DNA from: an uncultured virus (IMG/VR IMGVR_UViG_3300042691_036107)
Lineage: Duplodnaviria > Heunggongvirae > Uroviricota > Caudoviricetes
DNA: 64,000 bases
IMG/VR virus record: IMGVR_UViG_3300042691_036107
Direction: 5' to 3' (one strand)
Below the pieces are notes generated by a model, which saw nothing but the letters and a program-made list of their open reading frames with translations, was not told the DNA's origin and did no database searches. Positions 1-62,039 of the stretch are shown here, in pieces (position 1 is the stretch's first letter; each line of letters starts with the position of its first letter). Position numbers and translations under genes: made by a program.

Positions 1-225
1 GTGCTTCATGAGATCGCGCACACTGTCGTCGGGCGCGACGAGATGCTCTGTACGGTCTACGAACGCGCTCTTGCCAAGACTATTGGGCTGCCTCGGGGGC
101 TGTACCGGAATTTGCTCGAATACGCGCCAGGCGAGCCGAGCAAGTTCGAGCGGAAGATCCTGCTTCAAGAAGGCGTGATCGCGCGTGAGGGCCGGAAGGC
201 CCCGCACGCCGTGAGGCTCGCGTGA
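1..225 (+). CDS. 5'-truncated protein with HExxH zinc-metallopeptidase-like motif
   Basis: Open from window start; LHEIAH motif; stop overlaps next start (GTGA). Confidence 0.5.
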   Translation: MLHEIAHTVVGRDEMLCTVYERALAKTIGLPRGLYRNLLEYAPGEPSKFERKILLQEGVIAREGRKAPHAVRLA

Positions 226-455
226 ATTTCGAGTACCTGCTCCAGAACGGCGATCGGGTCGTCATCACGCACTCGTGGGCCGTGATTCATGGCCAACGTG
301 GTCGTGTGAGCGGAGAGCCCTATGTGAACCACACGGGGGGACTTGCTGTGAAGGTCATCCCGGACGGGCAGTCAGCGCTCTTCTTGTTTGTGAAAGACGT
401 GCGTCTTCTGACGCCAGCCGAGCTTCTTGCTGAGGTGGCACATGAACCCAGGTGA
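222..455 (+). CDS. small KOW/SH3-like protein with C-terminal PAELL tag
   Basis: NGDRVVI...RLLTPAELLAEV. Confidence 0.7.
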   Translation: MNFEYLLQNGDRVVITHSWAVIHGQRGRVSGEPYVNHTGGLAVKVIPDGQSALFLFVKDVRLLTPAELLAEVAHEPR

Positions 456-2066: not shown

Positions 2067-2312
2067 ATGACGTTCGAGTTCTACCACGAGATGCTGCGGA
2101 AAGACGCGGCTTTCGTGTTGGAGTGCAGGCACTTCACGGAAGCCAACCTCCGGCGAAAGGACTACGCCGGGGCGGAAGGCTGGCGCGCCCTGGAGCGCCA
2201 GACGCTCCAGGCCATGGAGCTCGCCGCTCGGCTGGCGATAGCGGCACTCCTTCGAGAGTACCCGCCGGAGCCGGTCATCGTTCTGACTGGATCGGACATC
2301 GCGGAAGCTTAG
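2067..2312 (+). CDS. hypothetical protein
   Basis: GGAGG RBS before ATG 2067. Confidence 0.65.
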   Translation: MTFEFYHEMLRKDAAFVLECRHFTEANLRRKDYAGAEGWRALERQTLQAMELAARLAIAALLREYPPEPVIVLTGSDIAEA

Positions 2313-2379
2313 GTGATGGGCGCCGGCGTCGGCCGGCGTTAAACCGCAAGTCTGGTCCAAAGCCCAGACAGAGGCCAAC

Positions 2380-3421: not shown

Positions 3422-3552
3422 GTTCTGCTCACGCAGACACCGGGCGCGATCCGGCGGCATGGCCCTCATGCCGTCACCTGCGCGTGGCGAGGGCTGCACA
3501 CCGGCATGTTGCCGGTGACCGACGACGGCAACTGCACAGACAGGATCCTCTC

Positions 3553-4695
3553 ATGTTGTTTCTCGACGCCGCTCGCATGATGTTCGACGACTGGAAGGCG
3601 GGGGACAAGACCCCGTACATCCTGCTCGGCCCTCCGGGCATCGGCAAGTCCGCCATCCCGACCCTCGTGGCCGAGATGATGACCAAGTACGTCCAGTCGC
3701 GCCAGCCGGCGGCGGGTCCGGCGATCTGCCGCATCCTGGACACGACGACCAAGATGCCCGAGGACATCCCCGGGCTCCCGCACATCGACAAGGACGGGCC
3801 GAACCCGGTCACCCGGTTCGCATCCCAGTCGTGGATGGCGGAGCTGTGCGAGCCGGGCGCGTACGGTGTTCTGTGCTTCGATGATGGCACCCAGGCGCTC
3901 CAGAGCGTGCAACTCGCGATGCGGCAGGTGCTGCTCCAGCGCGAGGTTCACGACGCCAAGCTCTCCGACAACGTGCTGGTCATCGTGACCGGCAACCGGC
4001 GGGAAGACAAGAGCGGCGCGGCGGCGCTGCCGGCCCACTTCATCAACGCCTGCTCGCTGCACACTATCCAGCCCGACTTCGCGAGCTGGGCGCTCTGGTA
4101 CGGCGAGCAGTCGGGCTTGGACCCGGTGGTCCCCTCCTTCCTCCGCTGGAGGTTGGTCCACTTCCACAAGACGCCGGCCGACGCCGACAGCATGGGCCGC
4201 TTCGCCACGCCTCGCACGTGGGCGAAGCTGGGCGCGCGGCTCCCGAACCACCGCAACCACCCCGAGCGGCTCCTGGAATTGTCGGCGGGCCTCGTCGGCG
4301 AGGGCGTCGGGATCGAGTTCGTGGCGTTCGTCAACACCCGCTCGCAGCTCGTGGAGCCCGAGCGGGTGCTTCAGGACCCGGAGCGCGCGTTGCCCAACCC
4401 GAAGGCGACGCTCGACACGCCGGACAAGGCGTACGCGCTCATCACCGGGTTGGGCGAGGCGGCAGCCCAGTGGGCCAAGAGCGGCGACAAGAAGAAGACG
4501 GCGGAGCACGGGCTCGCCTTTCTCCGCGCGATCGGCTGGGCCAGCGACGGCAACCGTGAGTTCATCTCGGTGGCCCTCGACACCTTCGTCGCGAACGGGG
4601 GTTCGATGGCGCCGGTGCTCGCGGCAGCCCAGAAGGCGGGCAAGGATCCGCTGGTCAAGGGCGTCATCGATCACCTGGCGAAGGCGCTCAAGTGA
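3553..4695 (+). CDS. MoxR-like AAA+ ATPase
   Basis: Walker A GPPGIGKS, Walker B VLCFDD, TGNRRED, TPRTW motif. Confidence 0.85.
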   Translation: MLFLDAARMMFDDWKAGDKTPYILLGPPGIGKSAIPTLVAEMMTKYVQSRQPAAGPAICRILDTTTKMPEDIPGLPHIDKDGPNPVTRFASQSWMAELCEPGAYGVLCFDDGTQALQSVQLAMRQVLLQREVHDAKLSDNVLVIVTGNRREDKSGAAALPAHFINACSLHTIQPDFASWALWYGEQSGLDPVVPSFLRWRLVHFHKTPADADSMGRFATPRTWAKLGARLPNHRNHPERLLELSAGLVGEGVGIEFVAFVNTRSQLVEPERVLQDPERALPNPKATLDTPDKAYALITGLGEAAAQWAKSGDKKKTAEHGLAFLRAIGWASDGNREFISVALDTFVANGGSMAPVLAAAQKAGKDPLVKGVIDHLAKALK

Positions 4696-6017
4696 ACGCG
4701 AAGGCTGAAGTCCTGTCGCCAGAAGCGCTGGTGGCGATGGAAGGCCCTGCGCGAGACCTGGTGAAGGAGGCGCAGCTCGCGCTCTCCGTGTGGTGTCCGT
4801 TCTTCGCGCACCTCGTCTTGAAGATGAAGGTGATCATCACGGACCGCATCCCGCTGGCCGCGGTGACGCCCGATCGGGTGTTGCTGATCAACCCTCAGTG
4901 GGCCACGACGACGACGCCGGGGGAACTGGCGGCGACGCTCGTGCACGAGACGTTGCACATCGCGCTGCTCAACTTCGAGCGGCAGGGCGAGCGGAAGCTG
5001 ATCGTGCAAGACCAGCACGGGCAGAAGGCGCCGTTGTGGAACCTCGCGTGCGACTTCGTGATCAACGAGGTCATCGAGCACATGAGCGAGAGGTCGCCCT
5101 TGCTCACGGAGAAGCGGTTCCTCCCTCCGACAAAGTGGGAGCCGAAGGGGCTGTACGACGCGAAGTACGACGGCTGGTCGGCGGAGGAGGTCTATGATGA
5201 CCTGCTCACGAACGTGAAGCAGCCGCCCCCGGACCGCAAGGGCTGTTCACCGGGACAAGGCAACTTCATCATCGAGATGGAGTTCGGTCCTGGCACGGCG
5301 GACATGCAGGATGGCGACCGCAAGGCGGACGGCACGAAGATGTCGCCGACCGAGAAGGCGCTGGAGAAGCAGTATTGGACGATGGCCCTCGTGGAAGCCG
5401 CGATGGTGCACCAACAGACGCGTGAGCGCGGTACGCTCCCGGGTCGCATCGATAAGCTGGTGAAGGAGATCACCGAGCCCCAGGTGAGCTGGCGCGAGGC
5501 CCTGTCGCGATGGGTCGGCCAGAACGGGGCGCGGGGTGACTTCAGCTACCGTCGTCCTTCCCGGCGATCGGAATCGGCCGGAACCATCCTGCCGATCCTG
5601 GTCAAGTGGGGCATCGCGGACGTGGTGATCTTGTGGGACACCTCGGGCTCGATGAACAGCCGCGAGACGGAGATCATGAGCGAGGTCGTGGGCATGTGTC
5701 ACGAGATCGGCATGACCGTCTGGGTCATCACGTGCGATACCGAGGTCCACTCGGACCAGAAGGGCGTGAGCGAAGCCGACCAGATCTCCGTCATCGGAGG
5801 CGGCGGCTCGGACTTCTGCCCGGCGTTCGAGCTGGTCGAGGAGGCTCAGTTCGAGGGCGTGATCGTGGCGTTCACGGATGGGTACATCCGTGTTCCTCCG
5901 GTTGCTCCGGTGAACGTCAAGGGCGTTCTCTGGGTCCTGTGGGAGCACGATGTCGACCCGACCGGCGGAACGTGGGGTGAGATCCTCCGCGTCCAGGATG
6001 GCAAGGTCAAACGTTGA
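4692..6017 (+). CDS. HExxH metallopeptidase-like + vWA domain protein (DUF2201-like)
   Basis: VHETLH, WNLACDFVIN, DTSGSM, GGGGSDF, FTDGY; adjacent to AAA ATPase. Confidence 0.85.
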   Translation: MNAKAEVLSPEALVAMEGPARDLVKEAQLALSVWCPFFAHLVLKMKVIITDRIPLAAVTPDRVLLINPQWATTTTPGELAATLVHETLHIALLNFERQGERKLIVQDQHGQKAPLWNLACDFVINEVIEHMSERSPLLTEKRFLPPTKWEPKGLYDAKYDGWSAEEVYDDLLTNVKQPPPDRKGCSPGQGNFIIEMEFGPGTADMQDGDRKADGTKMSPTEKALEKQYWTMALVEAAMVHQQTRERGTLPGRIDKLVKEITEPQVSWREALSRWVGQNGARGDFSYRRPSRRSESAGTILPILVKWGIADVVILWDTSGSMNSRETEIMSEVVGMCHEIGMTVWVITCDTEVHSDQKGVSEADQISVIGGGGSDFCPAFELVEEAQFEGVIVAFTDGYIRVPPVAPVNVKGVLWVLWEHDVDPTGGTWGEILRVQDGKVKR

Positions 6018-7130: not shown

Positions 7131-7309
7131 ACATGATCTACAGCTCGTTGCACGGCGGCGGCTGGTGGACCTCCATGGGCCACATACACATACGCCCGAT
7201 GGATCTTCGTCGCGTCCGGCAGCGGAAAGACATCCAGATGCGCGGTTTCGGCTTTCGACTCGTTCGTCAGCTTCTGCCTGCTCAGGTGATCGCCGAGGTG
7301 AAGCTGTGA
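7127..7309 (+). CDS. cassette A5
   Basis: ...HGGGWW...FGFRLVRQLLPAQVIAEVKL. Confidence 0.75.
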   Translation: MNMIYSSLHGGGWWTSMGHIHIRPMDLRRVRQRKDIQMRGFGFRLVRQLLPAQVIAEVKL

Positions 7310-7491
7310 GCGTCGCCGGTCGCTCGTTTCGTGGCGGAGGCTGGTGGAATTCTTCGGCGTCTATGCGCGTCACGGATCGTTTCAGGTTTCAGCCCGATTA
7401 CTGCTTCAACGTCCTTGGTCTTCGCCTGACCCGGCGGCTCGTTCCCGCTCAACAATTGCTCGAAGTAACAATCCACGAAGAGGAGGTCCCT
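7306..7491 (+). CDS. cassette A6 (no stop; reads in frame into the FGE scaffold)
   Basis: RSFRGGGWWNSSASMRVTDRFRFQPDYCFNVLGLRLTRRLVPAQQLLEV. Confidence 0.7.
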
Positions 7492-7947
7492 GTGAGCAAG
7501 CTCGATGAAGTGACGTACGTGGTCGACGGTGTGGAGTTCGTGTTCGTTCGGACGCAGATGCCGAACGGCGACATCATGGAGATCCAGAAGTACCCCATGA
7601 CCCAGGCGCAGTACCGGGCGCTGACGGGCAAGGATCCGTCGCACTTCAAGGGCGACCAGAACCCCGTGGAGTCCGTCAACTGGTACGAGTCGGTCGAGGC
7701 CGGCAAGCTCCTGTCGGAGAAGACGGGCCGCGAAGGCTTCCGTCTCCCGACCGAGGAAGAGTGGGTCTGGGCGGCGAAGGCCGGGGATGACTTCGAGTGG
7801 GCGGGCTCGAACAACCCCGATGAGGTCGCCTGGCACGACGGGAACTCGGGCGGCAGCACGCACCCGGTCGGCCAGCTCAAGCCGAACGGCTGGGGCATCT
7901 ACGACATGTCCGGGAACGTGTGGGAGTGGTGCCTGGATGAGTTCTAG
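7492..7947 (+). CDS. C-terminally truncated formylglycine-generating enzyme (FGE/SUMF1, CLec-fold) domain protein
   Basis: AGGAGGT RBS + GTG; YPMTQAQY, PVESVNWY, FRLPTEEEWVWAA, HPVGQLKPNGWGIYDMSGNVWEWCLD then stop. Confidence 0.9.
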   Translation: MSKLDEVTYVVDGVEFVFVRTQMPNGDIMEIQKYPMTQAQYRALTGKDPSHFKGDQNPVESVNWYESVEAGKLLSEKTGREGFRLPTEEEWVWAAKAGDDFEWAGSNNPDEVAWHDGNSGGSTHPVGQLKPNGWGIYDMSGNVWEWCLDEF

Positions 7948-8112
7948 AACCAGGATCACGCGCGGCGGAAGTTTCTTCGCAGTCTTACGCTGGCGTGCTC
8001 GATCGAGGACAGGGGCGGACACGAAGAAGTGTACCGTCGCTATCCCGCGGTCGGCTTCCGCCTCGTCCGTCGTCTTCGTCCTGCCATGCAACTCAGCGAG
8101 GTAACACCGTGA
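7937..8112 (+). pseudogene. cassette A7, frameshifted
   Basis: MSSRTRITRGGSFF in one frame; ...YPAVGFRLVRRLRPAMQLSEVTP* in the -1 frame. Confidence 0.65.
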
Positions 8113-8955: not shown

Positions 8956-9104
8956 TCATCGGTGGCTCTTGGGGCTTTCCCCATAAGGTCTCTCGTCTGG
9001 CTCACGTGGACCACGTGATGCGAGATTGGAAAGACGATGACATAGGTTTCAGGTTGATCCGACGCCTACGCCTCGCTCAGGTGCTTGCGGAGATCGGGCG
9101 ATGA
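8952..9104 (+). CDS. cassette A13
   Basis: IIGGSW...DDIGFRLIRRLRLAQVLAEIGR. Confidence 0.8.
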   Translation: MIIGGSWGFPHKVSRLAHVDHVMRDWKDDDIGFRLIRRLRLAQVLAEIGR

Positions 9105-9262
9105 TGCTCGTCCTTCGGGGTGGCGGCTGGTACAGCACGATCCGTGCCATCCCGTTTACTCGACGGGATCGTGGCGAGGCAGACGATCGTTTCGAGTCTT
9201 TCGGATTTCGACTTGCCCGGCGACTTGTACCTGCTCAAGCGCTCAGTGAGGTGACGTTGTGA
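9101..9262 (+). CDS. cassette A14
   Basis: Manual: VLRGGGWY...SFGFRLARRLVPAQALSEVTL. Confidence 0.8.
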   Translation: MMLVLRGGGWYSTIRAIPFTRRDRGEADDRFESFGFRLARRLVPAQALSEVTL

Positions 9263-9435: not shown

Positions 9436-9608
9436 GTCGCCGTTTGCTCGGTGGAGGTTGTTTCGCCCTGTTGCACCGGTGTGTCGTGCGTGGACCCGAC
9501 CACGCAAGCTACGGCTCGCGTTTCGCTTGTTCTATCGGCTTTCGGCTTGCTCGGAAGATCACGCCTGCAGAGCTGCTCGTGGAGGGGTGTTGTGCTGAAG
9601 GTCGGTGA
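9432..9608 (+). CDS. cassette A16
   Basis: LLGGGCF...SIGFRLARKITPAELLVE. Confidence 0.75.
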   Translation: MSRRLLGGGCFALLHRCVVRGPDHASYGSRFACSIGFRLARKITPAELLVEGCCAEGR

Positions 9609-9825
9609 TCGTGTTCGCTTCACGAAGCGGAGCATCAGTCTCTATTATGGCCGGAATGGAACGGTGCTGAGCTTGACGCCAATACCTCAGGCAGTGCTTG
9701 TGGCAGTCTGCATGGACGGTGATCCGGCCGCCTGCGAAGTAGCTTTCTTGTCCGAGAGCCTACGGCTGCTCACGCCCGCAGAGTTGCTCGTTGAAGCAGC
9801 GGAGAAGGAGGAGTCAGATGAGTAG
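9592..9825 (+). CDS. small KOW/SH3-like protein with PAELL tag
   Basis: LKVGDRVRF...LRLLTPAELLVE. Confidence 0.7.
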   Translation: MLKVGDRVRFTKRSISLYYGRNGTVLSLTPIPQAVLVAVCMDGDPAACEVAFLSESLRLLTPAELLVEAAEKEESDE

Positions 9826-11667: not shown

Positions 11668-14199
11668 ATGACGAAGAAAGTCGAGCGGTTTGCCTTCACC
11701 CTGCGGGATTTTCGAGGCAAGGTGAAGCGCTGCTACAACGTGGTCAAGACGGTCCCGTCGGCGCCGAAGCTGACGAAGAAGTTGACGCATCACATCTACA
11801 TCGTGGACGAGTCCGGCTCGATGTATTACGCGATGCGAGACCTCAAGGTCATGATCGAGAAGACCATGACGGTCGAGGAGTTCAAGGACTCCAAGATGAT
11901 GGTCACGCTCCTCGGGTACAGCTCGAAGGGCGACCTCGCCGTGTACTTCAGCCGGGTGTCGATCGCGGACGTGATGGCGCCGGGAAGTGCTCACGTCGAG
12001 GCGATTCGCCGTTTGCACGCGCGTGGCATGACGTGTGGCTCGCAGGCCTTCGAGAAGGCGCTGGAGTTCGTGACTCCCGGCGAAACGACCGGCATCAGCC
12101 TTCACACTGACGGCTACTTCAACGACCGTTCCGCATCCGACGAGCAGCGTGAATTCGATCGGCTCATCGAGGTCTGCAAGAAGACCCACCCCAACGTGTT
12201 CGTGAACACGGTCGCGCACGGCTCCTGGGCCGACTTCAAGCTCCTGTCGAAGATCGCCAACGCGCTCTCCGGCAAGTGCGTGGTCGCGCAAGACGTGAAG
12301 CAGGTCTACAAGGCCCTGCACGACACGAGCGCGCTGCTGGCCGGGCAGGTCGAGCCGGCGATCGACGCCGAGCTGCCCGACAACGCCGACTACCAGCTCT
12401 TCGTGAGCCGGGCCGCCGGGCGGGTAAACGGCGCCGCGGGAGATCTGGTCATCCAGGGCATCAAGCCCACGGACGACCGGGCGATCTACCACTTCAAGGA
12501 GACGGTCGACGAGGCGGTCGGTCTGCCACTGCTCGACGATGTAGAGCCGCACGTGGTTGCGGCCTTCGCGCAGGCGCAGTTGGCCGAAGGCCAGCTCAAC
12601 ACCGCGAAGTATGCCCTGGTCACGCTGCGTGATCCGCAACTCCTCGGGCTCCACGGTCGTGCCCTGACCAACAAGGCCCTGTCGAACATGGGTAGCGACC
12701 TGATGGCGGTCGTCAACGGCAGCCTGCCGCTCCCGACGACGCGGCCGGCGAGCTACGGTATCGAGTCCATCAAGCTCAGCGTCCTCGACCTGTTCGACGA
12801 GCTGGAAGCACAGCGGAACGCCTTCGAGGTGCACATGCCCTCGCTCTGGGCGAACTACCAGCGCCGGGGCCTGAAGCGGCTGTCCGGCACCTGGGAGGAA
12901 GGCAAGTTCGTTCCGGCCGAGTACAAGCAGGTGCCGCGGAAGAACGGCGACTACGCGCAGGTGAGGTCGTTCGACATCAAGCGCAACGCGGCGACGATCA
13001 ACCTCCTGGTGAGCCAGCCGGTCAGGCTGGTTGACCTCGCCGGGAACGAGATCGACGAGGTGGCGCGTGTCGACCTGACCGACCTCCGCTCGTACAACAA
13101 CGTCACGCTCGTCGCGGACGGCGAGTTGAACGTCACGAAGTTGACGGTGAAGTTCAAGAAGAAGCATCTCTTCAACACCTTGAGCGACCTCGGCGTGCTG
13201 ACGGGGGTCGTGCGAGGTGACACTTTCGACCCGATGCGCGACTACGAGATCGACTTCGGCGGGTTGCCGTTGATCGCCTTCGACCAGAGCTTCACGAACC
13301 CGAGCATGGCGTTCCGCAAGGTCCTGTTCCTCAAGACCATCATCGGCGTGGTGAGTGCGTGCGTGCGCGGCTCGACCGAGAGCGCCACGTACACGAGCGA
13401 ACAGATCGTCGAGCTGAAGAAGTTCTACATGACGCCGAACTTGAACTTCTCGCCCCCGAGCACGGTGCCGTACCGGGACGTGAAGGAGGCTATCTCCACG
13501 GGGCTGGTCGACAGCTACCCGCGCTTCGCGATCGAGATCGGCGACACGAACATCCTAGACGCAGGCAAGCTGCACTCGGCGAACGAGTGCTTGCGCCGTT
13601 TCTTCGTGTCGCCGACGGACGCGAAGGCCAAGATCGACTTCTCGATGTGGGCCGACGGCGCGAACTTCGCCCGGAAGGAGCTGACCAGCCGGACCAAGAT
13701 CACGAAGGTCGACGAGTACATGCGTCCGATCTTCGAGGAACTCTGCGGATTCAGCACGGGCGCCATCGTGGCGGCGTGCGAGGCGACGGGTTGGAAGGCG
13801 GGTGATGACATTCACTTCGCGGCGGCCGCGCTGGTCGACACGATCGGGAAGAGGGACAAGCTCTCGAAGGAGACGATCGCCGTGGTCCTCGACTCGATTA
13901 AGCGCCCCTGCGAGATCGAGCTGGAGCGTGTCTACGCCGAGGAGATCACGCCGCTCGCGTTCTACATCGGCGCGACCGGGCTGCTGCCCGACAGCAAGGA
14001 CTTCGAGTTCGTGACGATGCTCACGGCCGAGCAGCTCGTCGAGAAGTACCCGAACCTCAACCCGGACAAGGACCAGCGCGAGGGCTTGTTCTTCGTCGTC
14101 GGCGACACGGTGCTGTCGGTCGCGGTGACGAACGAGCTGTTCTCGACGCCTGCCGGTGTCGAAGCGGCGAAGCAGATCCAGAACGAAGTCTCGGCCTAG
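11668..14199 (+). CDS. large vWA-domain protein
   Basis: 843 aa; MIDAS-like VDESGSM and HTDGY; AGGAG RBS. Confidence 0.8.
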   Translation: MTKKVERFAFTLRDFRGKVKRCYNVVKTVPSAPKLTKKLTHHIYIVDESGSMYYAMRDLKVMIEKTMTVEEFKDSKMMVTLLGYSSKGDLAVYFSRVSIADVMAPGSAHVEAIRRLHARGMTCGSQAFEKALEFVTPGETTGISLHTDGYFNDRSASDEQREFDRLIEVCKKTHPNVFVNTVAHGSWADFKLLSKIANALSGKCVVAQDVKQVYKALHDTSALLAGQVEPAIDAELPDNADYQLFVSRAAGRVNGAAGDLVIQGIKPTDDRAIYHFKETVDEAVGLPLLDDVEPHVVAAFAQAQLAEGQLNTAKYALVTLRDPQLLGLHGRALTNKALSNMGSDLMAVVNGSLPLPTTRPASYGIESIKLSVLDLFDELEAQRNAFEVHMPSLWANYQRRGLKRLSGTWEEGKFVPAEYKQVPRKNGDYAQVRSFDIKRNAATINLLVSQPVRLVDLAGNEIDEVARVDLTDLRSYNNVTLVADGELNVTKLTVKFKKKHLFNTLSDLGVLTGVVRGDTFDPMRDYEIDFGGLPLIAFDQSFTNPSMAFRKVLFLKTIIGVVSACVRGSTESATYTSEQIVELKKFYMTPNLNFSPPSTVPYRDVKEAISTGLVDSYPRFAIEIGDTNILDAGKLHSANECLRRFFVSPTDAKAKIDFSMWADGANFARKELTSRTKITKVDEYMRPIFEELCGFSTGAIVAACEATGWKAGDDIHFAAAALVDTIGKRDKLSKETIAVVLDSIKRPCEIELERVYAEEITPLAFYIGATGLLPDSKDFEFVTMLTAEQLVEKYPNLNPDKDQREGLFFVVGDTVLSVAVTNELFSTPAGVEAAKQIQNEVSA

Positions 14200-14295: not shown

Positions 14296-14511
14296 ATGCA
14301 CTTCCGAGCCAAGCCGCTCCCCGCATGGGAGAAGCGCATATTGTGGTTCCTGGCGGAGAAGGGACGCCGGGTCCCGTTCCAGTGGGAGACACGCTCCGGC
14401 CGCTGGCGGTGCGCCCGTTGCGGAGATGTCGTTGATGCGGTGACCAAGCCGGTTCCGTTCTGTCGAGAGTGCGAAGGACCGATCAAAGCTTTGATCGAGG
14501 TGAAGTCATGA
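14296..14511 (+). CDS. small zinc-finger protein
   Basis: CARC...CREC. Confidence 0.55.
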   Translation: MHFRAKPLPAWEKRILWFLAEKGRRVPFQWETRSGRWRCARCGDVVDAVTKPVPFCRECEGPIKALIEVKS

Positions 14512-14672
14512 AAGCCGTGTACCTTGTTCATGGTGGGTGTTGGTCGAACGTTATCTCGTTCCTTCGCCCTAGCTACGGGGGCCAGGTGTTTCCATCCGGT
14601 GCGCGGACGATCGGTTTTCGCCTGGTTCGCGCCCTACGACCAGCGCAGCAACTCGCCGAGGTGAAGCCATGA
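14508..14672 (+). CDS. cassette B1
   Basis: VHGGCW...TIGFRLVRALRPAQQLAEVKP. Confidence 0.8.
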   Translation: MKAVYLVHGGCWSNVISFLRPSYGGQVFPSGARTIGFRLVRALRPAQQLAEVKP

Positions 14673-14839
14673 AACTCGATCGATGCTGCAAAGGCGGGGC
14701 TTTAAGAGATTCTCCATCGTCCTGCCGAATCCGTACAAGAGGCGCAGAGACCGCGCATGACGGTTGGTGTGTGGACATCGGCCTTCGTTTGTACCGGCGG
14801 CTCACCCCTGCTCAGCAACTCGGCGAGGTGCGGCTGTGA
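14669..14839 (+). CDS. cassette B2
   Basis: Manual: RCCKGGAL...DIGLRLYRRLTPAQQLGEVRL. Confidence 0.75.
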   Translation: MKLDRCCKGGALRDSPSSCRIRTRGAETAHDGWCVDIGLRLYRRLTPAQQLGEVRL

Positions 14840-15003
14840 AGTGTGATCGGGTTTGTCTCGGTGGGGGGCACAGAGACCAAGAAGTTCGTTGTAAACCGAT
14901 CGCGTCCGCGGCTGATGTCGATGAGCAACGGTTTCTGGACATCGGCTTTCGCCTGTTCCGTCGGCTCATGCCTGCTCAGGCGCTCAGCGAGGCGACGACA
15001 TGA
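14836..15003 (+). CDS. cassette B3
   Basis: RVCLGGGH...DIGFRLFRRLMPAQALSE. Confidence 0.75.
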   Translation: MKCDRVCLGGGHRDQEVRCKPIASAADVDEQRFLDIGFRLFRRLMPAQALSEATT

Positions 15004-15170
15004 CCGGAGACAAGAACCGCAAGTGCGAAGGTGGTGCTTGGAACTCCAATCAGTGGGGCCGTCGTATGTTCGAGGGGGCGGCACCAGATAGCGTAATAGA
15101 TCCTGACTTGGGCTTTCGCCTTGTCCGTCGCCTTGCACCCGCGCAACAGCTTTCGGAGATCCGTGGATGA
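15000..15170 (+). CDS. cassette B4
   Basis: Manual: KCEGGAW...DLGFRLVRRLAPAQQLSEIRG. Confidence 0.75.
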   Translation: MTGDKNRKCEGGAWNSNQWGRRMFEGAAPDSVIDPDLGFRLVRRLAPAQQLSEIRG

Positions 15171-15349
15171 AACTGGATTCAGTCATCATCGGCTGTTCGT
15201 ACAGCAGCTCTTGCGAGGTTTGGCTGCTTCATCACGACATGAACAAGCGGCGTATTACCTGGCTTAAGTCGATCAGAGACGAAGACACGAGTCTTCGCCT
15301 GATCCGGCGTTTATCCCCTGCTCAAGCCCTCGGGGAGATTCAACGATGA
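15167..15349 (+). CDS. cassette B5
   Basis: IIGCSY...DTSLRLIRRLSPAQALGEIQR. Confidence 0.7.
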   Translation: MKLDSVIIGCSYSSSCEVWLLHHDMNKRRITWLKSIRDEDTSLRLIRRLSPAQALGEIQR

Positions 15350-15513
15350 GCCTGTACAGAGCCGTGATGGGATGCGCTGCTGATGTCGACATCTATTCGG
15401 TTCAGCTTGTGTATCCTTTCACAGGCGAGAGCACGGAACGTAGTGAAGACACGGGTTTCCGCCTGTACCGTCGACTTACACCCGCGCAGCAACTTGCGGA
15501 GATCAGACCATGA
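15346..15513 (+). CDS. cassette B6
   Basis: Manual: RAVMGCAA...DTGFRLYRRLTPAQQLAEIRP. Confidence 0.75.
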   Translation: MSLYRAVMGCAADVDIYSVQLVYPFTGESTERSEDTGFRLYRRLTPAQQLAEIRP

Positions 15514-15677
15514 TCGCGGCCGTCAAACTGCGAGGCACGTGTTTCGGCAGCCGCGTCGGTTGGGTCTCAAATAGAACGGCGGTGGTAGTGCAGAAAGGGC
15601 GTAGTAGTTCTACCTGGGGTTTTCGGCTGTGCCGATGCTTCAGTTTCGCGCAAGCGCTCGCTGAGGTGAAGCCTTGA
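15510..15677 (+). CDS. cassette B7
   Basis: Manual: KLRGTCF...TWGFRLCRCFSFAQALAEVKP. Confidence 0.7.
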   Translation: MIAAVKLRGTCFGSRVGWVSNRTAVVVQKGRSSSTWGFRLCRCFSFAQALAEVKP

Positions 15678-15835
15678 ATAAGGTAGTCTGCGGAGGGACT
15701 TACGCTTTGTTCCAAGCTTTCGCGAAGCTCACGTGGCTGCGGTTCACCTTCCGCCCAGCGGACAAAGCTAGGGTTGGCCTACGCCTCGTTCGCACGGTCC
15801 TGCCCGCGGAAGCGCTGTCTATGGTGAAGACATGA
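15674..15835 (+). CDS. cassette B8
   Basis: Manual: VVCGGTY...RVGLRLVRTVLPAEALSMVKT. Confidence 0.7.
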   Translation: MNKVVCGGTYALFQAFAKLTWLRFTFRPADKARVGLRLVRTVLPAEALSMVKT

Positions 15836-15990
15836 CTCCAATGTGCGCGCGTGGAGGCTCTTGGTTCGTTGAACGGGTGCTTCTACGCTACAGGCTCGAC
15901 TTGAGCGGTAAAGACCAATACCGCACGGTAGGGCTTCGGCTGGTTCGGCGATTGCGCCCGGCGCAGGCTCTGTCAGAGATGCAACCATGA
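15832..15990 (+). CDS. cassette B9
   Basis: Manual: CARGGSWF...TVGLRLVRRLRPAQALSEMQP. Confidence 0.8.
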   Translation: MTPMCARGGSWFVERVLLRYRLDLSGKDQYRTVGLRLVRRLRPAQALSEMQP

Positions 15991-16181
15991 GCCGGAAAGA
16001 TCAAGGCAGTCGAGGTGGCTCTTTCAGCTTCCACCGCCGCTGGTCTCGCTGGCGCCACCGTGCAATGGATCCTGTGACATCCAGAAACTTGGACGCCGGA
16101 TTTCGTCTGTTTCGCCGGCTCAAGCCGGCACAATCGCTCGGCGAGGTCGGGCATGAAGACTACAACAATGAGGAGGAATGA
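15987..16181 (+). CDS. cassette B10
   Basis: SRGGSF...DAGFRLFRRLKPAQSLGEV. Confidence 0.8.
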   Translation: MSRKDQGSRGGSFSFHRRWSRWRHRAMDPVTSRNLDAGFRLFRRLKPAQSLGEVGHEDYNNEEE

Positions 16182-16184
16182 CAG

Positions 16185-17543
16185 ATGGCGAAGATCGAGA
16201 CGACGCTGAGCGCGAGCTACCAGCGGGGGACTTGGGCGTTCAAGGACGCCATGAGGGAACTGATCAGCAACGCGCTGGACGGTGAGACGAGGCTGCGCCC
16301 GCTCGGTTATGGCCGGGCGTCGCTGAAGTACGACGAGCGGACCATGACAGCGACGATCGGCAACATCGGCGTCACGGTCCCGACCAAGGCCTTGCTCATG
16401 GGAACGAGCGAGAGCCGGGACGTGGATGCGGCGATCGGCCAGTTCGGCGAGGGACTGCCGATGGCGTTGCTCGTCCTCGCCCGTCTGGGACGGGACGTGG
16501 TGATCTACAACGGCGAGGAGAAGTGGACGCCGAGCATCGAGCGGTCGGACCGCTTCGACGGCGAGCACATCCTGGTCATCAACACGCGGAAGGTGCAGGA
16601 TCGGGGCCGGTTCGAGGTCAACGTCTCGCCGGTAACGCGGGAGCAGTGGGAGGAGGCACGCGCGCTGTTCCTGCACTTCGATCCAACGTTCGACAAGAGC
16701 CAGGCGGTACAGTTGGACGAAGAACAAGTCCTGTTGCAACCCGAGTTCCGGGGACGCCTTTACTGCAAGGGCGTGTTCGTGCAGGCCCGCAAGGACCTGG
16801 CTTTCGGTTACGACCTCAATCTCGTTCTCAACCGCGATCGCTCGTTCTTGAACGAGTGGGATTTGCAGGACAAGCTCGGTCGTCTGTTGAGCAACGTCGT
16901 CTCGCACGTCAACGAGAATGAGTCCTTCGCTCACAACCTCGCAGAGCGGGTACTCAACGAGGATCTGCTGGAAGGCAAAGACGCCTACAGTTCGTTGGTC
17001 TACAATTCGACGTTCCAGCGCATCATGCAGGAGCTGTTCCAGGCGCGCTACGGCGAGACTGCCGTGCCTGTCGAGACGGCTGATGATGAGAAGGAAGCGC
17101 ACAGCTTCGACTTGCGCCCTGTGCGGGTCGGCCGGACAGCGCTCAAGGTCCTGCAAGGCAGCATCGGCTCGCTGTCGCAGATCCGGGAGCGCCGCGCGAG
17201 TGAGGTTGTGTCCGTCCATGACTTCGACAGCCTCAGCTCGGCGGAGCGGCAGAACCTCATGACGCTGCAGGCGCTCGTGGAGGCGTGCGACAGGGGGACC
17301 TCGCTTGTTTGCGTATCGTACCGCGACCCGAGCACGCCCTACACGCGGAAGGGTCGTGAGATCTGCATCAACCGGACCGGGCTGCTGGAGCTGGGCGCGG
17401 CGATCCATCGGGTCGTCTCGGCCCTCGGCGGGATGAGCGATCAGCCCCCGACGCTCGATGTTGCCGTCAGTCTGCTCCAGCGTATGATCGAAGGCAACGA
17501 CACCGTGCTGATGCAGCGCCTGCTCGCGGCTCGGGGTGCGTGA
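16185..17543 (+). CDS. GHKL (HATPase_c)-like ATPase domain protein
   Basis: RELISNALD (N box), IGQFGEGL (G box). Confidence 0.75.
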   Translation: MAKIETTLSASYQRGTWAFKDAMRELISNALDGETRLRPLGYGRASLKYDERTMTATIGNIGVTVPTKALLMGTSESRDVDAAIGQFGEGLPMALLVLARLGRDVVIYNGEEKWTPSIERSDRFDGEHILVINTRKVQDRGRFEVNVSPVTREQWEEARALFLHFDPTFDKSQAVQLDEEQVLLQPEFRGRLYCKGVFVQARKDLAFGYDLNLVLNRDRSFLNEWDLQDKLGRLLSNVVSHVNENESFAHNLAERVLNEDLLEGKDAYSSLVYNSTFQRIMQELFQARYGETAVPVETADDEKEAHSFDLRPVRVGRTALKVLQGSIGSLSQIRERRASEVVSVHDFDSLSSAERQNLMTLQALVEACDRGTSLVCVSYRDPSTPYTRKGREICINRTGLLELGAAIHRVVSALGGMSDQPPTLDVAVSLLQRMIEGNDTVLMQRLLAARGA

Positions 17544-19733: not shown

Positions 19734-20104
19734 TGCGGAAGGTGAGTCGGAACGCCGTTCAGGACTTCTGGCAGTGCAAGCCGGCACGGCACAGCAACAC
19801 TTGGATCGTCCAGGAAGGCGACTGGACCGTGATGCTCCTGCACGGTAACGCAATCGCGAGACGCCGAGGCCTTCGGCTGGAAGTCAGCTCGGCCGGTTGG
19901 ACGACCTCGACCACGCGGGAGCGCCTGAACGGCGTGCTCAGCGAGGTCAACGCTCACGCCTGGATCAAGGACGGCGTGCTGTACGCGGCCGGTCCCGGCT
20001 TGGACTGCGAAGGCCCTGTCGAGCTGGACCGGACCTGGACGGCTGTGAAGTTCGGGACGCCGGCCGAGCAGCTCGTGTACGCGACGAGGAAGACCGAGCC
20101 GTGA
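19733..20104 (+). CDS. hypothetical protein with PAEQL tag
   Basis: LHGNAIA..AGWTTSTTRERLN; ends GTPAEQLV. Confidence 0.7.
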   Translation: MRKVSRNAVQDFWQCKPARHSNTWIVQEGDWTVMLLHGNAIARRRGLRLEVSSAGWTTSTTRERLNGVLSEVNAHAWIKDGVLYAAGPGLDCEGPVELDRTWTAVKFGTPAEQLVYATRKTEP

Positions 20105-20265
20105 CCGAGTTCAAGCTGAAAGGCGGAAGCTGGCGCTCTCTAGCAGCGTCCGCCAGACTTCCCCGACGCCTCGTGGAACTGCCTGACGACAAGGGCTTCT
20201 CCAGGGGCTTTCGTCTGATCAGGAGGCTCACGCCTGCCCAGCAGCTCGCAGAGGTGGCGCCTTGA
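20101..20265 (+). CDS. cassette C1
   Basis: KLKGGSW...SRGFRLIRRLTPAQQLAEVAP. Confidence 0.8.
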   Translation: MTEFKLKGGSWRSLAASARLPRRLVELPDDKGFSRGFRLIRRLTPAQQLAEVAP

Positions 20266-20426
20266 TCCCGTGTTACGGCGGCTCGTTCAACGGTCCTTCC
20301 GGCTGGACCCGGGTTGCCGGATTTCCAGGAAGTTCGTACCGCGCCTCAGACATTCATCTGAGCTTGGGCTTCCGGCTCGTTCGCCGGCTCAAGCCAGCGC
20401 AGGTGCTCAGCGAGGTGCAGCGATGA
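20262..20426 (+). CDS. cassette C2
   Basis: Manual: CYGGSF...SLGFRLVRRLKPAQVLSEVQR. Confidence 0.75.
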   Translation: MIPCYGGSFNGPSGWTRVAGFPGSSYRASDIHLSLGFRLVRRLKPAQVLSEVQR

Positions 20427-20590
20427 CGCGGTTCTACGGGTTCACGGGCGGCGGGTACAACGACGCGAAAGATTGGGCTCAGCCCGGCGTTGGTAGCTGT
20501 ATTAAACCGACCGAGCGCGTGAAGAGCTTCGGCTTCAGGCTGGTCCGTCGTATGAAGCTAGCGCAGGCCTTGGCGGAGGTGAAGCCGTGA
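20423..20590 (+). CDS. cassette C3
   Basis: FTGGGY...SFGFRLVRRMKLAQALAEVKP. Confidence 0.75.
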   Translation: MTRFYGFTGGGYNDAKDWAQPGVGSCIKPTERVKSFGFRLVRRMKLAQALAEVKP

Positions 20591-20757
20591 GGCAGCTACG
20601 AAGAGGTATCGCAGGAGGCTGCTTCGGATCCGACGTGTTCTCTACGAAGCCCGAGAAACTCGGAAGCGACGGGGTTCAGGTCAAGGACGATGACCTGGGC
20701 TTCCGGCTGGTCAGGCGTCTCGTTCCCGCTCAGATGCTCTCGGAGGTGAAGCCTTGA
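20587..20757 (+). CDS. cassette C4
   Basis: Manual: IAGGCF...DDLGFRLVRRLVPAQMLSEVKP. Confidence 0.75.
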   Translation: MRQLRRGIAGGCFGSDVFSTKPEKLGSDGVQVKDDDLGFRLVRRLVPAQMLSEVKP

Positions 20758-20924
20758 TCAAGCAAGCAGTGTCAATGCGTGGAGGCTGCTTCCTGTTCTT
20801 GGCTATGAGTGCACGTTTGAACTACCATATTCATGTAAACCGAGAGGGGTACATGTGGTCGCAATCTTTCCGCTTGGTCCGGCGTGTCGGACCGGCGCAA
20901 CAACTCGCCGAGATCAACCGATGA
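20754..20924 (+). CDS. cassette C5
   Basis: Manual: MRGGCF...QSFRLVRRVGPAQQLAEINR. Confidence 0.75.
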   Translation: MIKQAVSMRGGCFLFLAMSARLNYHIHVNREGYMWSQSFRLVRRVGPAQQLAEINR

Positions 20925-21172
20925 AACTCGGTGATCGGGTCTGCGTGCGAAACAAGCCGAAGGACGAAACGTCCGTGGTCTACGAGGTCTGGCGCAAGAA
21001 GCTGTGCGGGACCGCCAGCGAGAAGATCTACGGTTGGCCGAATTTCGTCCGTATCGAGTTCGACAACGGCTGGGACCTTTACTTGAACGTGCGCCTGTTG
21101 GATGTCCTGACTCCGGCGGAGGAGTTGGTGTTCAAGACTACGCGGCGAAAGCCGACGAGGAGAGCAAAGTGA
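20921..21172 (+). CDS. small KOW/SH3-like protein with PAEEL tag
   Basis: MKLGDRVCV...DVLTPAEELV. Confidence 0.7.
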   Translation: MKLGDRVCVRNKPKDETSVVYEVWRKKLCGTASEKIYGWPNFVRIEFDNGWDLYLNVRLLDVLTPAEELVFKTTRRKPTRRAK

Positions 21173-28691: not shown

Positions 28692-29221
28692 AGTTCTGGT
28701 CGTTCCAGGGCAAGGCTGTTTACAAGCAGCCCGAGACGATTCAAGTGTTGGCCGAGACAGAAGAGGAAGCCGTTCAGGTCATGCGGGCACGCAAGCTGGC
28801 CGAGTGCTTGCAGGATGCGCCTTGTCATGATTTCGAGGTCGAAGACACCGAAGTTGAGACACCTCTTGTCTGGCTACTGCTGATGGGCGACACGCAGAGC
28901 TACTTCCCCTCGTTCACCGCGGTCAGCGAGTTCTTGACGGCGGCAATCGCTGCTTGGAGTTCTTCATCGCCTCCCGCGGTGCAGCTCCAGTGGAGCGAGA
29001 ACTTGATGGCCATGCTTCGTCAGTATCCGGGACAGGCGGTGCGCTGGGATGGGCGCGGCGAGGTCGGTATGGTCCTCATCCCGATCAGCGGGCGAACCAC
29101 GTTGAGCCTGACCGACGCGCGAAACACGCTCAACCCACCTCCTGCGACTTCGGGGTACGGAAAAACCGTGTACCCGGTCATGCCCGCGGGACTGACTCGG
29201 AAGTCCCCGGGCGGTGAGTGA
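28688..29221 (+). CDS. hypothetical protein
   Basis: GAGGAG RBS. Confidence 0.6.
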   Translation: MKFWSFQGKAVYKQPETIQVLAETEEEAVQVMRARKLAECLQDAPCHDFEVEDTEVETPLVWLLLMGDTQSYFPSFTAVSEFLTAAIAAWSSSSPPAVQLQWSENLMAMLRQYPGQAVRWDGRGEVGMVLIPISGRTTLSLTDARNTLNPPPATSGYGKTVYPVMPAGLTRKSPGGE

Positions 29222-29430
29222 TGTTCAAGATCGGTGATCGAGTCGAGATCTACACGATCAACGGCGTAGAGCATGGAGTCACCGAGGACGTTCTCGGGGA
29301 GAACGTGTTCGTACGGCTTCACGGGCAACTCTACGCTCGCTGGATGTCACAGTGCCGTCCGCTCACGCCGGCCGAGCTTCTCGTAGAACTGTCGGCCGAG
29401 CAAGCGTTGACAGATGACAAGACTTCATGA
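29221..29430 (+). CDS. small KOW/SH3-like protein with PAELL tag
   Basis: FKIGDRVEI...RPLTPAELLVE. Confidence 0.7.
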   Translation: MFKIGDRVEIYTINGVEHGVTEDVLGENVFVRLHGQLYARWMSQCRPLTPAELLVELSAEQALTDDKTS

Positions 29431-57380: not shown

Positions 57381-58058
57381 ATGAACCCGCTCGTTTCCCC
57401 CGGCGCCGGCCCCATCCCGGGCGTTCCGGCCCAGCAGCCGACCAACCTGTTCCGCTACGGCGAGATCACGCTGTACTCCTCGCACGCCTTCCCGGCGGCG
57501 ACCGCGCTGGCGAACACCGCCAACCGGATCTTCGTGACCGCGCTCGGCTCGCAGGGCCAGGGCTTCACCGGCGCGCTCACCAAGAGCGAGACCAACCTGA
57601 AGGAATCGGGCCGTATCCCGTCGGGCCAGGCCTACGACGTGTACGGCGTCGCGACCCAGGTCCTCGCGGGTACGTCTGAGGCGAGCCTCGCGCTGCCGTT
57701 CAACGACGCGACCGCCACGGTCGCGGCGCTCCAGAACATCGTCAACAACGGCGTTCTGGCCTGGGACTTCACCCAGACGAACATCGACATCTGCCCGGTC
57801 ATGCTGGCCGGCGCCGGTGGCGGTGTCTACGGGTCGATCTCCCAGAACGCGGCCGGCGCCAACGCCGGTGCGATGAACAACGGCAACGGCGGCATCTGGA
57901 TGTACCGCAAGCACCCCGTCGCGCTCCCGGGCTCGACGACCTTCGCGGTCATCATCCAGTTCGGCAGCCGTGCGGCGGCGATCCCCGGTGGCTTCGCGGT
58001 GTCCATCCGCGTCGTCCTCCTCGGCTACTACCGCAGCGTGATCGAGATCGGCAACTAG
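57381..58058 (+). CDS. candidate single jelly-roll major capsid protein
   Basis: 225 aa, beta-rich, strong codon bias, double terminator; TKSETNLKESGRIP motif recalls vertical single-jelly-roll capsids (unverified). Confidence 0.5.
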   Translation: MNPLVSPGAGPIPGVPAQQPTNLFRYGEITLYSSHAFPAATALANTANRIFVTALGSQGQGFTGALTKSETNLKESGRIPSGQAYDVYGVATQVLAGTSEASLALPFNDATATVAALQNIVNNGVLAWDFTQTNIDICPVMLAGAGGGVYGSISQNAAGANAGAMNNGNGGIWMYRKHPVALPGSTTFAVIIQFGSRAAAIPGGFAVSIRVVLLGYYRSVIEIGN

Positions 58059-61475: not shown

Positions 61476-62039
61476 ATGTCTCACGACCAGTACCGCTCCG
61501 CCAACGTCGCGATGCCGTCGTCCGCTCAGCTTGGCGGCAACCCCGACGCGGGCGTGCCGTCGTTCATCCGGTTCCCGTTCTACCCGACCTCGCCCTGGTA
61601 CTCGACGAATCCCAACGTCGGCTATCAGGTCCGGTACTACTCGACGGGCGTGCTCAGCTCTGATCTCGACTTCGCCGTTGGGTCCGAACTGATGCGGACG
61701 ATCCAGTTCGACCTGCCATGCCGCGTGATCGGCTTCAACGGTGCGTCGGTCGACTTGACCACGCCGTCGACCGGCCCAATCAACGAGTCGAACATGAACC
61801 TGATGTACCTCATGCGTGTCGAGTACACGATGGGGGACAAGCTGCACACGTCTGCGCGGCTGGGTTCTACGGTCGTCGGCACCGCCCAGCGCCCCGGCGA
61901 GATCGGCGGTCACGGCTACAACATCGATCAGGGTGCGTCGCTTCAGGTGTTCATCACGCCTCTCGTGGCAGACATCCGGATCGACATCACCGCGATCTGC
62001 CTGGAGATGCGCGCGCCGCGCAACTACACCATTCGGTAG
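61476..62039 (+). CDS. putative minor capsid/vertex jelly-roll-like protein
   Basis: 187 aa beta-strand pattern in the structural cluster. Confidence 0.5.
   Translation: MSHDQYRSANVAMPSSAQLGGNPDAGVPSFIRFPFYPTSPWYSTNPNVGYQVRYYSTGVLSSDLDFAVGSELMRTIQFDLPCRVIGFNGASVDLTTPSTGPINESNMNLMYLMRVEYTMGDKLHTSARLGSTVVGTAQRPGEIGGHGYNIDQGASLQVFITPLVADIRIDITAICLEMRAPRNYTIR

What the first reader, a model, noticed from the sequence alone, without database searches (positions are those of the whole stretch)
7492..7947. FGE scaffold ends precisely at GNVWEWCLD, just before the variable segment
Seen: strong AGGAGGT RBS, intact FGE motifs and high GC3 codon bias right up to the TAG, unlike the flanking cassettes. 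No signal peptide and no RGGS/GFR tail. Inference: a clean cut at this domain position with preserved codon bias suggests a maintained constant half rather than a decaying pseudogene.
Basis: partly seen in the sequence, partly recalled or inferred. Interest (0 to 1): 0.8.

Follow-up and report, generated by a model that had tools for sequence, protein, structure and literature searches.

The report
Split viral lectin with 31 tips
A bacterial virus encodes one lectin-like binding protein that lacks its ligand-contacting last piece, plus about 30 tiny genes that each encode a different version of that piece, so it probably assembles many binders from one body and a hard-wired library of tips; binding has not been measured.

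Summary
7492-7947 encodes the first three-quarters of an FGE-type C-type-lectin (CLec) domain and stops five residues after GNVWEW. The stop is real (two runs' contigs, no differences) and conserved: 11 of the 11 closest homologs stop at the same place; 0 of 283 ordinary FGE motifs do. The missing piece (RGG..26 aa..GFRL, the DGR 'variable region') is encoded 31 times in three chained mini-gene arrays. Their ends are conserved as protein, not as DNA. One tip is fused in frame upstream, giving a circular permutant, as in one homolog. A model docks a free tip into the body (0.95; best control 0.16; may be memory of TvpA). Three jumbo-phage records show the same split; the two read in full have one body and about 16 and 24-25 tips on both strands, with a DGR A-mutation footprint but no RT or template found. 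Best reading: a body completed in trans by interchangeable tips, giving a fixed, antibody-like binder library, probably intracellular. DNA cassette swapping is the main rival. I found no description in print; this scan's unchecked notes report similar cases in other phages.

The parts
7481..7487 (+). Shine-Dalgarno-like AGGAGGT for the body's own start; it lies inside the linker codons of the upstream fused tip
7492..7947 (+). Body ('scaffold'): FGE-type CLec domain lacking its last segment (the variable region and final core strand); 151 aa; the only body in the window
   Evidence: conserved stop
7306..7491 (+). Tip cassette in frame with the body (no stop): a 213-aa circularly permuted domain; its residues 3-43 match TvpA 252-292
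   Evidence: same fusion in homolog P0005; junction bridged by X1 contig 7293-7900
6441..9608 (+). Tip array 1: 16 cassettes (5 upstream of the fused tip, the fused tip, 10 downstream of the body), 50-62 aa each, start/stop-overlapped
7937..8112 (+). Tip directly after the body; its start overlaps the body's last codons; the RGGSF start and the GFRL tail are in different frames (frameshifted)
   Evidence: same letters in X1 and X2 contigs
9101..9262 (+). Free tip used in the complex model; its GFRL (residues 35-38) packs on body residues 31-36, 83-86 and 143-146
14508..16181 (+). Tip array 2: 10 cassettes
20101..20924 (+). Tip array 3: 5 cassettes

Best explanation
A split C-type-lectin-fold binding protein completed in trans. 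The body gene is translated strongly from its own start and makes a domain lacking the ligand-binding loop region and final core strand. About 30 chained mini-genes each make that missing piece with a different variable middle. A tip's constant GG and GFRL ends insert into the body and finish the fold, and its variable middle forms the binding surface. One body thus yields about 30 binders at once, with no DNA rearrangement or reverse transcriptase needed at the time of use; the fused tip gives a default one-chain version. SHOWN: conserved truncation, intact translatable tips, protein-level conservation of tip ends, one body to many tips. MODELLED: tip-body fit. INFERRED: expression, binding, ligands, and role. 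The likeliest role is an intracellular early-gene repertoire against host or rival-virus proteins; the shared PA[EQ]xL tail may dock on a common viral partner.
For: Truncation conserved in 11 of 11 closest homologs and absent from 0 of 283 control motifs; the truncated bodies form one clade (SH-aLRT 100 for 12 rows in the quick tree; 89/81 for 6 rows in the careful tree). The cut falls just before the segment that the TaqVP paper calls the ligand-binding site between beta3 and beta5 plus the invariant beta5 strand (PMC6328139 passages; TvpA alignment). Tips look like genes: 30 of 31 have open frames of 50-64 aa; 29 of those 30 start on a 4-nt overlap with the upstream stop (starts partly chosen for this); 26 of 31 tails hold GAGG/GGAG before the next start. 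Tails are conserved as protein (uncorrected pS 0.69, pN 0.26). GG-to-GFR spacing centres on 26 residues, as in intact domains. Complex model: score 0.95, best of 3 controls 0.16; the mark was reached by 116 of 157 solved complexes and 2 of 215 mismatched pairs; runs agree in at least 98% of contacts, partner pLDDT at least 83. Three jumbo-phage records have a body with the same cut followed by coupled tips; G001 and G003 have one body each and about 16 and 24-25 tips on both strands. Stand-alone single-tip (about 51 aa) and double-tip (85-99 aa) ORFs with their own start and stop are among the 114 hits to the tip profile. Body GC3s 0.92 against tips 0.61 fits one highly made body serving many tips (inference).
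Against: No expression or binding data. The complex pass may be memory of solved one-chain FGE domains (TvpA 2Y3C is the top match), only the most FGE-like tip was tried, and my own alignments were used. The body has an in-frame tip and could work as one chain, leaving the free tips as spare or decaying copies; one tip is frameshifted and several are degenerate. The genomic context of the 11 close homologs was not retrieved (searches returned only ordinary FGE genes), so their tips are not shown except the fused one in P0005. One X4 contig joins 7944 to 8046 with a 21-nt side, and several contigs continue past 7932 into DWY-type sequence; I read these as other organisms' full-length FGE genes, but did not prove it. 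Ligand and role are unknown.
Confidence: 0.66

Rival explanations
1. DNA-level cassette switching: the in-frame slot upstream of the body is the expression site, and the other tips are donors moved in by deletion or gene conversion through the shared tail (as in vlsE/pilS-type variation; recalled).
For: One tip is fused in frame here and in P0005. All window tips share a 51-61 nt repeat and orientation. G001 holds one tip twice, in two clusters (19 rows, 18 unique).
Against: The fused tail is only 57% (median) and at most 69% identical to the other 30 tails, longest exact match 14 nt among its four best pairs and 19 nt among all 465 pairs. 25 of the 30 other tips lie downstream of the slot, so simple deletion cannot use them. 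Tips keep their own starts and RBS. The jumbo-phage bodies have no fused tip, and their tips sit on both strands. No tip-to-body joint inside the virus was listed in four runs (contigs only, depth about 5, so weak).
Confidence: 0.14
2. The permuted one-chain protein (tip 7306 plus body) is the working unit; the free tips are independent peptides (decoys or poisons of host FGE/CLec sensors) or drifting duplicates.
For: The fused tip is among the most canonical. Multicellular bacteria use FGS/CLec domains as putative invader sensors (PMC8195603 and PMC10907252 passages). Free tips are very diverged (at most 50% nucleotide identity over the 60 nt before GFR).
Against: The body has its own strong RBS and much higher GC3s than its fused tip (0.92 against 0.62). 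Ten of 11 close homologs are recorded without an N-terminal tip (gene callers may have picked internal starts). Jumbo-phage bodies have no fused tip yet keep many free tips.
Confidence: 0.12
3. Recoding joins body and next tip into one chain (frameshift or readthrough at the stop), or RNA-level joining.
For: A tip starts within or at the body's last codons in all four viruses read.
Against: The frame offset differs (+1 here, -1 in the jumbo phages; overlaps of 11, 1 and 4 nt), which fits stop-restart coupling rather than a conserved recoding signal. The window's next tip is itself frameshifted. This route cannot use distant tips.
Confidence: 0.05
4. Pseudogene or assembly error.
For: One near-identical record (P0004, 1110-bp contig) runs on into unrelated sequence after GN, which shows assemblies can break here.
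Against: Same stop in JGI and ENA protein records and in contigs of two runs; same cut in 11 diverged homologs and 3 jumbo-phage records; motifs and codon bias intact to the stop.
Confidence: 0.03

Closest known systems
DGR variable proteins of the FGE-type CLec fold (Treponema denticola TvpA, PDB 2Y3C; TaqVP; Bordetella phage Mtd)
   Same: Same fold: TvpA is the top sequence match (E 1e-25) and top structure match (E 4.7e-10, TMq 0.76). The tips correspond to the C-terminal variable region and beta5 strand (PMC6328139 passages). Jumbo-phage tips carry the A-only mutation footprint.
   Different: The variable region is a separate gene in about 30 copies, or is placed at the N-terminus. No RT or template repeat was found in the window or in G001-G003, and the window's tips show no A-footprint. 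In Wu et al. (PMC5758913, passages and one supplement row) the largest adjacent array is 8 DUF1566 target genes of 339-426 bp, flagged there as a likely assembly error; I saw no split body.
FGS/CLec sensors of bacterial conflict systems (MoxR-vWA ternary systems; Kaur et al. PMC7159879, PMC8195603; Dore et al. PMC10907252)
   Same: FGE-type domain used as a diversified, probably intracellular binder. An AAA ATPase-like gene and a DUF2201 metallopeptidase-vWA gene lie just upstream of array 1.
   Different: Those are cellular, with whole domains fused to effectors or as short CLec-only targets. MoxR with peptidase-vWA is also a common phage chaperone pair (PMC7824862 passage), so the neighbourhood is weak evidence.
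Silent-cassette antigenic variation (vlsE, pilE/pilS) and donor-strand complementation in chaperone-usher pili (both recalled, from no call)
   Same: A stored repertoire of variable segments; a fold completed by a strand from another chain.
   Different: The tips here look translated and are conserved as protein rather than DNA; the donated piece carries the whole binding surface.
Formylglycine-generating enzyme (SUMF1/FGE)
   Same: Pfam PF03781 match and fold.
   Different: The catalytic segment is absent from the body, and no tip has the enzyme's Cys pattern (0 of 30).

Membership tests
Diversity-generating retroelement | Reverse transcriptase gene | tested here: inconclusive
   None by motif scan in the 64-kb window or by PF00078/TIGR04416 in G001-G003. 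About 53 kb of the 116,965-bp source contig is not held, and G001-G003 are 13-59% complete.
Diversity-generating retroelement | Template repeat matching a variable region except at adenines | tested here: not met
   Window tips are at most 50% identical to each other over the 60 nt before GFR; no AAC-rich copy in the window, G001 or G003; an inferred template motif had 0 exact hits in viral contigs. Holds only for the DNA in hand.
Diversity-generating retroelement | A-specific variation among variable regions | tested here: inconclusive
   Not seen in the window's 31 tips. Met in 18 unique same-length tips of G001/G003: 0 of 64 conserved columns are A, 27 of 35 variable columns include A.
Diversity-generating retroelement | Variable region is part of the target protein's coding sequence, usually C-terminal | tested here: not met
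   30 of 31 tips are separate from the body; one is N-terminal.
FGE-type CLec fold | beta1/alpha1/alpha2/beta2 core with the PV..V.W, RLPTE.EWE and DM.GNVWEW motifs | tested here: met
   (pLDDT 93.6).
FGE-type CLec fold | C-terminal RGG..GFR segment giving beta3-beta5 in the same chain | tested here: not met
   Absent after the stop; present only upstream in frame or in separate ORFs.
Formylglycine-generating enzyme | Catalytic Ser/Cys pattern after RGG (hFGE Ser333, Cys336 per PMC6328139; second Cys recalled) | tested here: not met
   0 of 30 tips match GG[SG]..C or GG.{1,4}C.{4}C.
Silent-cassette gene-conversion systems (recalled) | Donor cassettes are untranslated and share near-identical DNA with the expression site | tested here: not met
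   Tips have starts, RBS and open frames; fused tail 57% median identity to the others.
Silent-cassette gene-conversion systems (recalled) | Rearranged alleles in the population | tested here: inconclusive
   Four runs, contigs only, depth about 5.

The most novel reading that the evidence does not exclude
Bacterial viruses have turned the DGR lectin fold into a two-chain, antibody-like system. One constant body is completed by any of dozens of separately translated variable peptides, so a single infected cell displays the whole repertoire at once. Double-tip peptides would cross-link two bodies, and the shared PA[EQ]xL tail, also found at the end of about ten unrelated small early proteins, would deliver all of them to one viral hub. 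The library is seeded by DGR mutagenesis (own or host-supplied) and then kept by duplication.
Probability: 0.5. Interest if true: 0.9.

Novelty: categorically new. Interest (0 to 1): 0.78.

Why it matters
Known CLec-fold diversifiers (DGRs) give each genome one variant per target and spread diversity across the population. A split body with a hard-wired tip library would give one virus about 30 specificities in the same cell, assembled at the protein level. That is a diversification route I did not find in print (8 searches; passages of 8 papers; supplements of only one were searched, and subscription journals are not covered). The parts (fold, variable region) are well known; the arrangement is the new thing, and the label rests on a mechanism that is modelled, not measured. 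It is cheap to test (a 151-aa protein plus 55-aa peptides), points to unknown host or rival-virus targets, and suggests a natural split scaffold for display. It also explains a class of 'orphan' 50-90 aa FGE fragments in databases that gene-size filters discard (Roux et al., PMC8144416 passage, first set aside targets under 300 nt). Iyer et al. (PMC7824862 passage) found no FGS domains in 224 jumbo phages; G003 has one, split. This scan's own unchecked notes list several similar phages, so the case is recurrent rather than unique.

Tried and rejected
INPHARED phages: 14 records, all under 60% identity, not examined for truncation. The profile search of representatives was swamped by multi-FGE proteins and is uninformative. 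The single-sequence fold of the permutant failed (pLDDT 32.6), and the mixed alignments A6 and A7 were misaligned and not used. CAI is invalid. A tip-tail pattern scan of viral contigs gave one hit that is unrelated by inspection; the putative capsid found no relative there. No RNA holder was listed. Promoter and terminator scans were at chance level. One versus two origins of the split: the AU test does not reject one clade (p 0.29), so I make no claim of independent origin. Rows dropped before counts: of 35 and 19 regex hits in G003 and G001, 11 and 3 were dropped by eye as non-tips; one further G003 tip appeared; the HMM count at domain E below 0.05 was 23 and 13, and 25 for the window (22 window tips were in the profile). 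The A-footprint test used only the 18 unique same-length tips. Only 54 of 173 long G003 ORFs were scanned for annotation.

Full report
OBSERVATION. The ORF 7492-7947 (+) is 151 aa and ends GNVWEWCLDEF-TAG. AGGAGGT lies at 7481-7487, four bases before the GTG. Pfam FGE-sulfatase matches profile positions 68-193 of 255 and nothing after. GC at synonymous third positions is 0.92, and 0.96 in the last 30 codons, against 0.61-0.66 in the cassettes. There is no signal-peptide-like stretch. Contigs of two runs bridge the stop with no differences; all runs were contigs at depth about 5, and one may be the source. Three runs hold half or more of the stretch's words and are labelled 'fungus metagenome'.

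THE CUT IS CONSERVED. Among the 120 best of 507 hits, three are near-identical records. The next 11 (P0005-P0015, 50-68% identity over 94-98% of the query) all end 5-6 residues after GNVWEW; the other 105 motif-bearing proteins run on for more than 25. In 238 fetched loci, 0 of 283 motif hits stop within 10 residues; two stop at 11, inside RGGS, and the rest at 42 or more (the set has near-duplicates). Among 120 listed longer proteins, none has both at least 90% cover and more than 44% identity. The truncated bodies form one branch. One near-identical record, P0004, runs into unrelated sequence after GN and looks chimeric.

WHAT IS MISSING AND WHERE IT IS. TvpA (2Y3C) is the best solved relative by sequence and by structure. 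The body ends at TvpA 231; TvpA's last 40 residues (252-292) are the RGG..GFR segment. The TaqVP paper states that the CLec N- and C-termini pair as beta1 and beta5, that the sequence between beta3 and beta5 forms the ligand site, and that the last residues of the variable region are invariant along beta5 (PMC6328139, passages). That segment is encoded 31 times in the window, in three arrays (16, 10, 5). Each reads: short leader, GG, about 26 variable residues, GFRL, tail RRLxPAQxLxEV. Thirty are open frames of 50-64 aa; the one just after the body is frameshifted, also in the run contigs. Twenty-nine of the 30 start on a 4-nt overlap with the upstream stop, and 26 of 31 tails hold the next gene's GAGG/GGAG. 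Tails are conserved as protein (pS 0.69, pN 0.26), while the variable parts are saturated (0.77, 0.70, unaligned) and at most 50% identical. The tip at 7306 has no stop before the body, giving a 213-aa circular permutant; homolog P0005 has the same fusion.

SAME DESIGN ELSEWHERE. Two exact-pattern scans for a stop 5 or 6 codons after DMxGNVWEW found three IMG/VR records. All three have a body ending GNVWEWTSTVH(K), followed by coupled tips, the first of which is shared by all three. G003 (265,895 bp) carries baseplate J, PolA, GroEL and RNR genes, so it reads as a jumbo tailed phage. G001 and G003 each have one body and about 16 and 24-25 tips in 4 and 7-8 clusters on both strands. In 18 unique same-length tips, none of 64 conserved columns is A and 27 of 35 variable columns include A, the DGR footprint. 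No RT or template was found, but the records are 13-59% complete. The window's own tips no longer show this footprint. A tip profile also retrieves stand-alone single-tip and tandem double-tip proteins with their own starts, mixed with ordinary gene fragments and template translations. Whether the split arose once or twice is open (AU p 0.29).

MECHANISM. The body alone is modelled confidently (pLDDT 93.6). With tip 9101 the complex scores 0.95 against a best control of 0.16; the mark was reached by 116 of 157 solved complexes and 2 of 215 mismatched pairs; runs agree in at least 98% of contacts; partner pLDDT is at least 83. The tip's GFRL sits on body residues 31-36, 83-86 and 143-146. This shows that the pieces are structurally complementary. 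It may be recall of one-chain FGE structures and does not show binding. With the genetics, the most economical reading (0.66) is completion in trans: one abundant body and many tips. DNA switching (0.14) is disfavoured because tails are poor recombination partners (57% median identity to the fused tail), 25 of the 30 other tips lie downstream of the slot, and the jumbo-phage bodies have no slot; it is not excluded by the shallow contig data. A one-chain permutant with independent or drifting tips (0.12), recoding (0.05) and pseudogene or error (0.03) follow.

ROLE (inference). The window looks like a bacterial virus: SD-coupled genes, a peptidoglycan-binding protein, a transglutaminase-like protein, a PHROG virion protein, and a capsid candidate whose nearest named Atlas clusters are jelly-roll capsid families at scores under 0.8, a lead only. 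The body and tips lie among small early-type genes, some 35-50 kb from those virion genes, and have no export signal. An intracellular role against host defence or competing elements is therefore more likely than receptor binding on the virion, perhaps 60:40. The related motif [STMY][PL]AExL occurs 16 times on the plus strand and 0 on the minus, 11 times within 25 residues of a stop, against 0.7 and 0.1 expected from a Markov model; ten of these eleven end unrelated small proteins. A common docking partner is possible and untested.

COMPARISON AND NOVELTY. It works with a DGR-type binding fold but is not filed as a DGR: no template in the DNA held, and the variable region is not in the target chain. 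It is not an FGE enzyme. Papers seen: passages of PMC5758913 (plus one supplement row), PMC10907252, PMC7159879, PMC12386605, PMC8144416, PMC6328139, PMC7824862, PMC8195603; all others as search listings only. Wu et al. record targets as short as 44 aa and three N-terminal variable regions, which may include unrecognised pieces of such systems; I did not check those rows. None of the passages describes a conserved body completed by separate tip genes. Earlier AI notes of this scan report the same idea for other phages; they are unchecked, I read them after forming my reading, and they are not support.

VERDICT. Real, conserved and not an artefact. Probably a two-chain lectin-fold binder library. 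Interest 0.78.

Noticed in passing
window 411, 601, 794, 6400, 9772, 20057, 21110, 22296, 25797, 29365 (+): Ten unrelated small ORFs end in the same [STM][PL]AExL motif as the tip tails; 16 plus-strand hits, 0 minus, about 0.7 expected. Possible shared docking or targeting tag.
   Followed up: partly
window 222-455, 452-645, 632-844, 9592-9825, 20921-21172, about 29218-29430 (+): Six small paralogous ORFs starting GDRV and ending in the PAExL tail; look like small beta-barrels (by eye); a second candidate mini-protein family.
   Followed up: no
window 2312-2367 (+): Twister-P5 ribozyme, Rfam RF02684, 58 bits, E 1.8e-9.
   Followed up: no
window about 3550-6017 (+): AAA ATPase-like gene (weak AAA_5 match) followed by a DUF2201 metallopeptidase-vWA gene just upstream of tip array 1; G003 also has an AAA_5 and vWA pair.
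   Followed up: partly
window 11668-14199 and 16185-17543 (+): Large genes flanking array 2: an 843-aa protein (PHROG 2426; vWA-like start by eye) and a 452-aa protein (PHROG 6077; GHKL-ATPase-like motif, recalled).
   Followed up: no
window 57381-58058 and 61476-62039 (+): Candidate single jelly-roll capsid proteins of a tailless virus; Atlas lead only, nearest named clusters P2_N/P2_C/P3 at 0.76-0.77 (first protein only). A 117-kb contig would be large for such a virus (recalled).
   Followed up: partly
proteins P0132-P0137, P0139-P0144, P0146-P0148, P0150, P0152-P0158 and others: Families of 85-99 aa proteins made of two tandem tips and nothing else; in several the first tip is shared and the second varies.
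   Followed up: partly
G001 about 9.2 kb and 65.8 kb: The same tip core occurs in two distant clusters on opposite strands: recent duplication or conversion.
   Followed up: no
L151 and L156: FGE genes that stop inside RGGS, 11 residues after GNVWEW: a different break, not examined.
   Followed up: no
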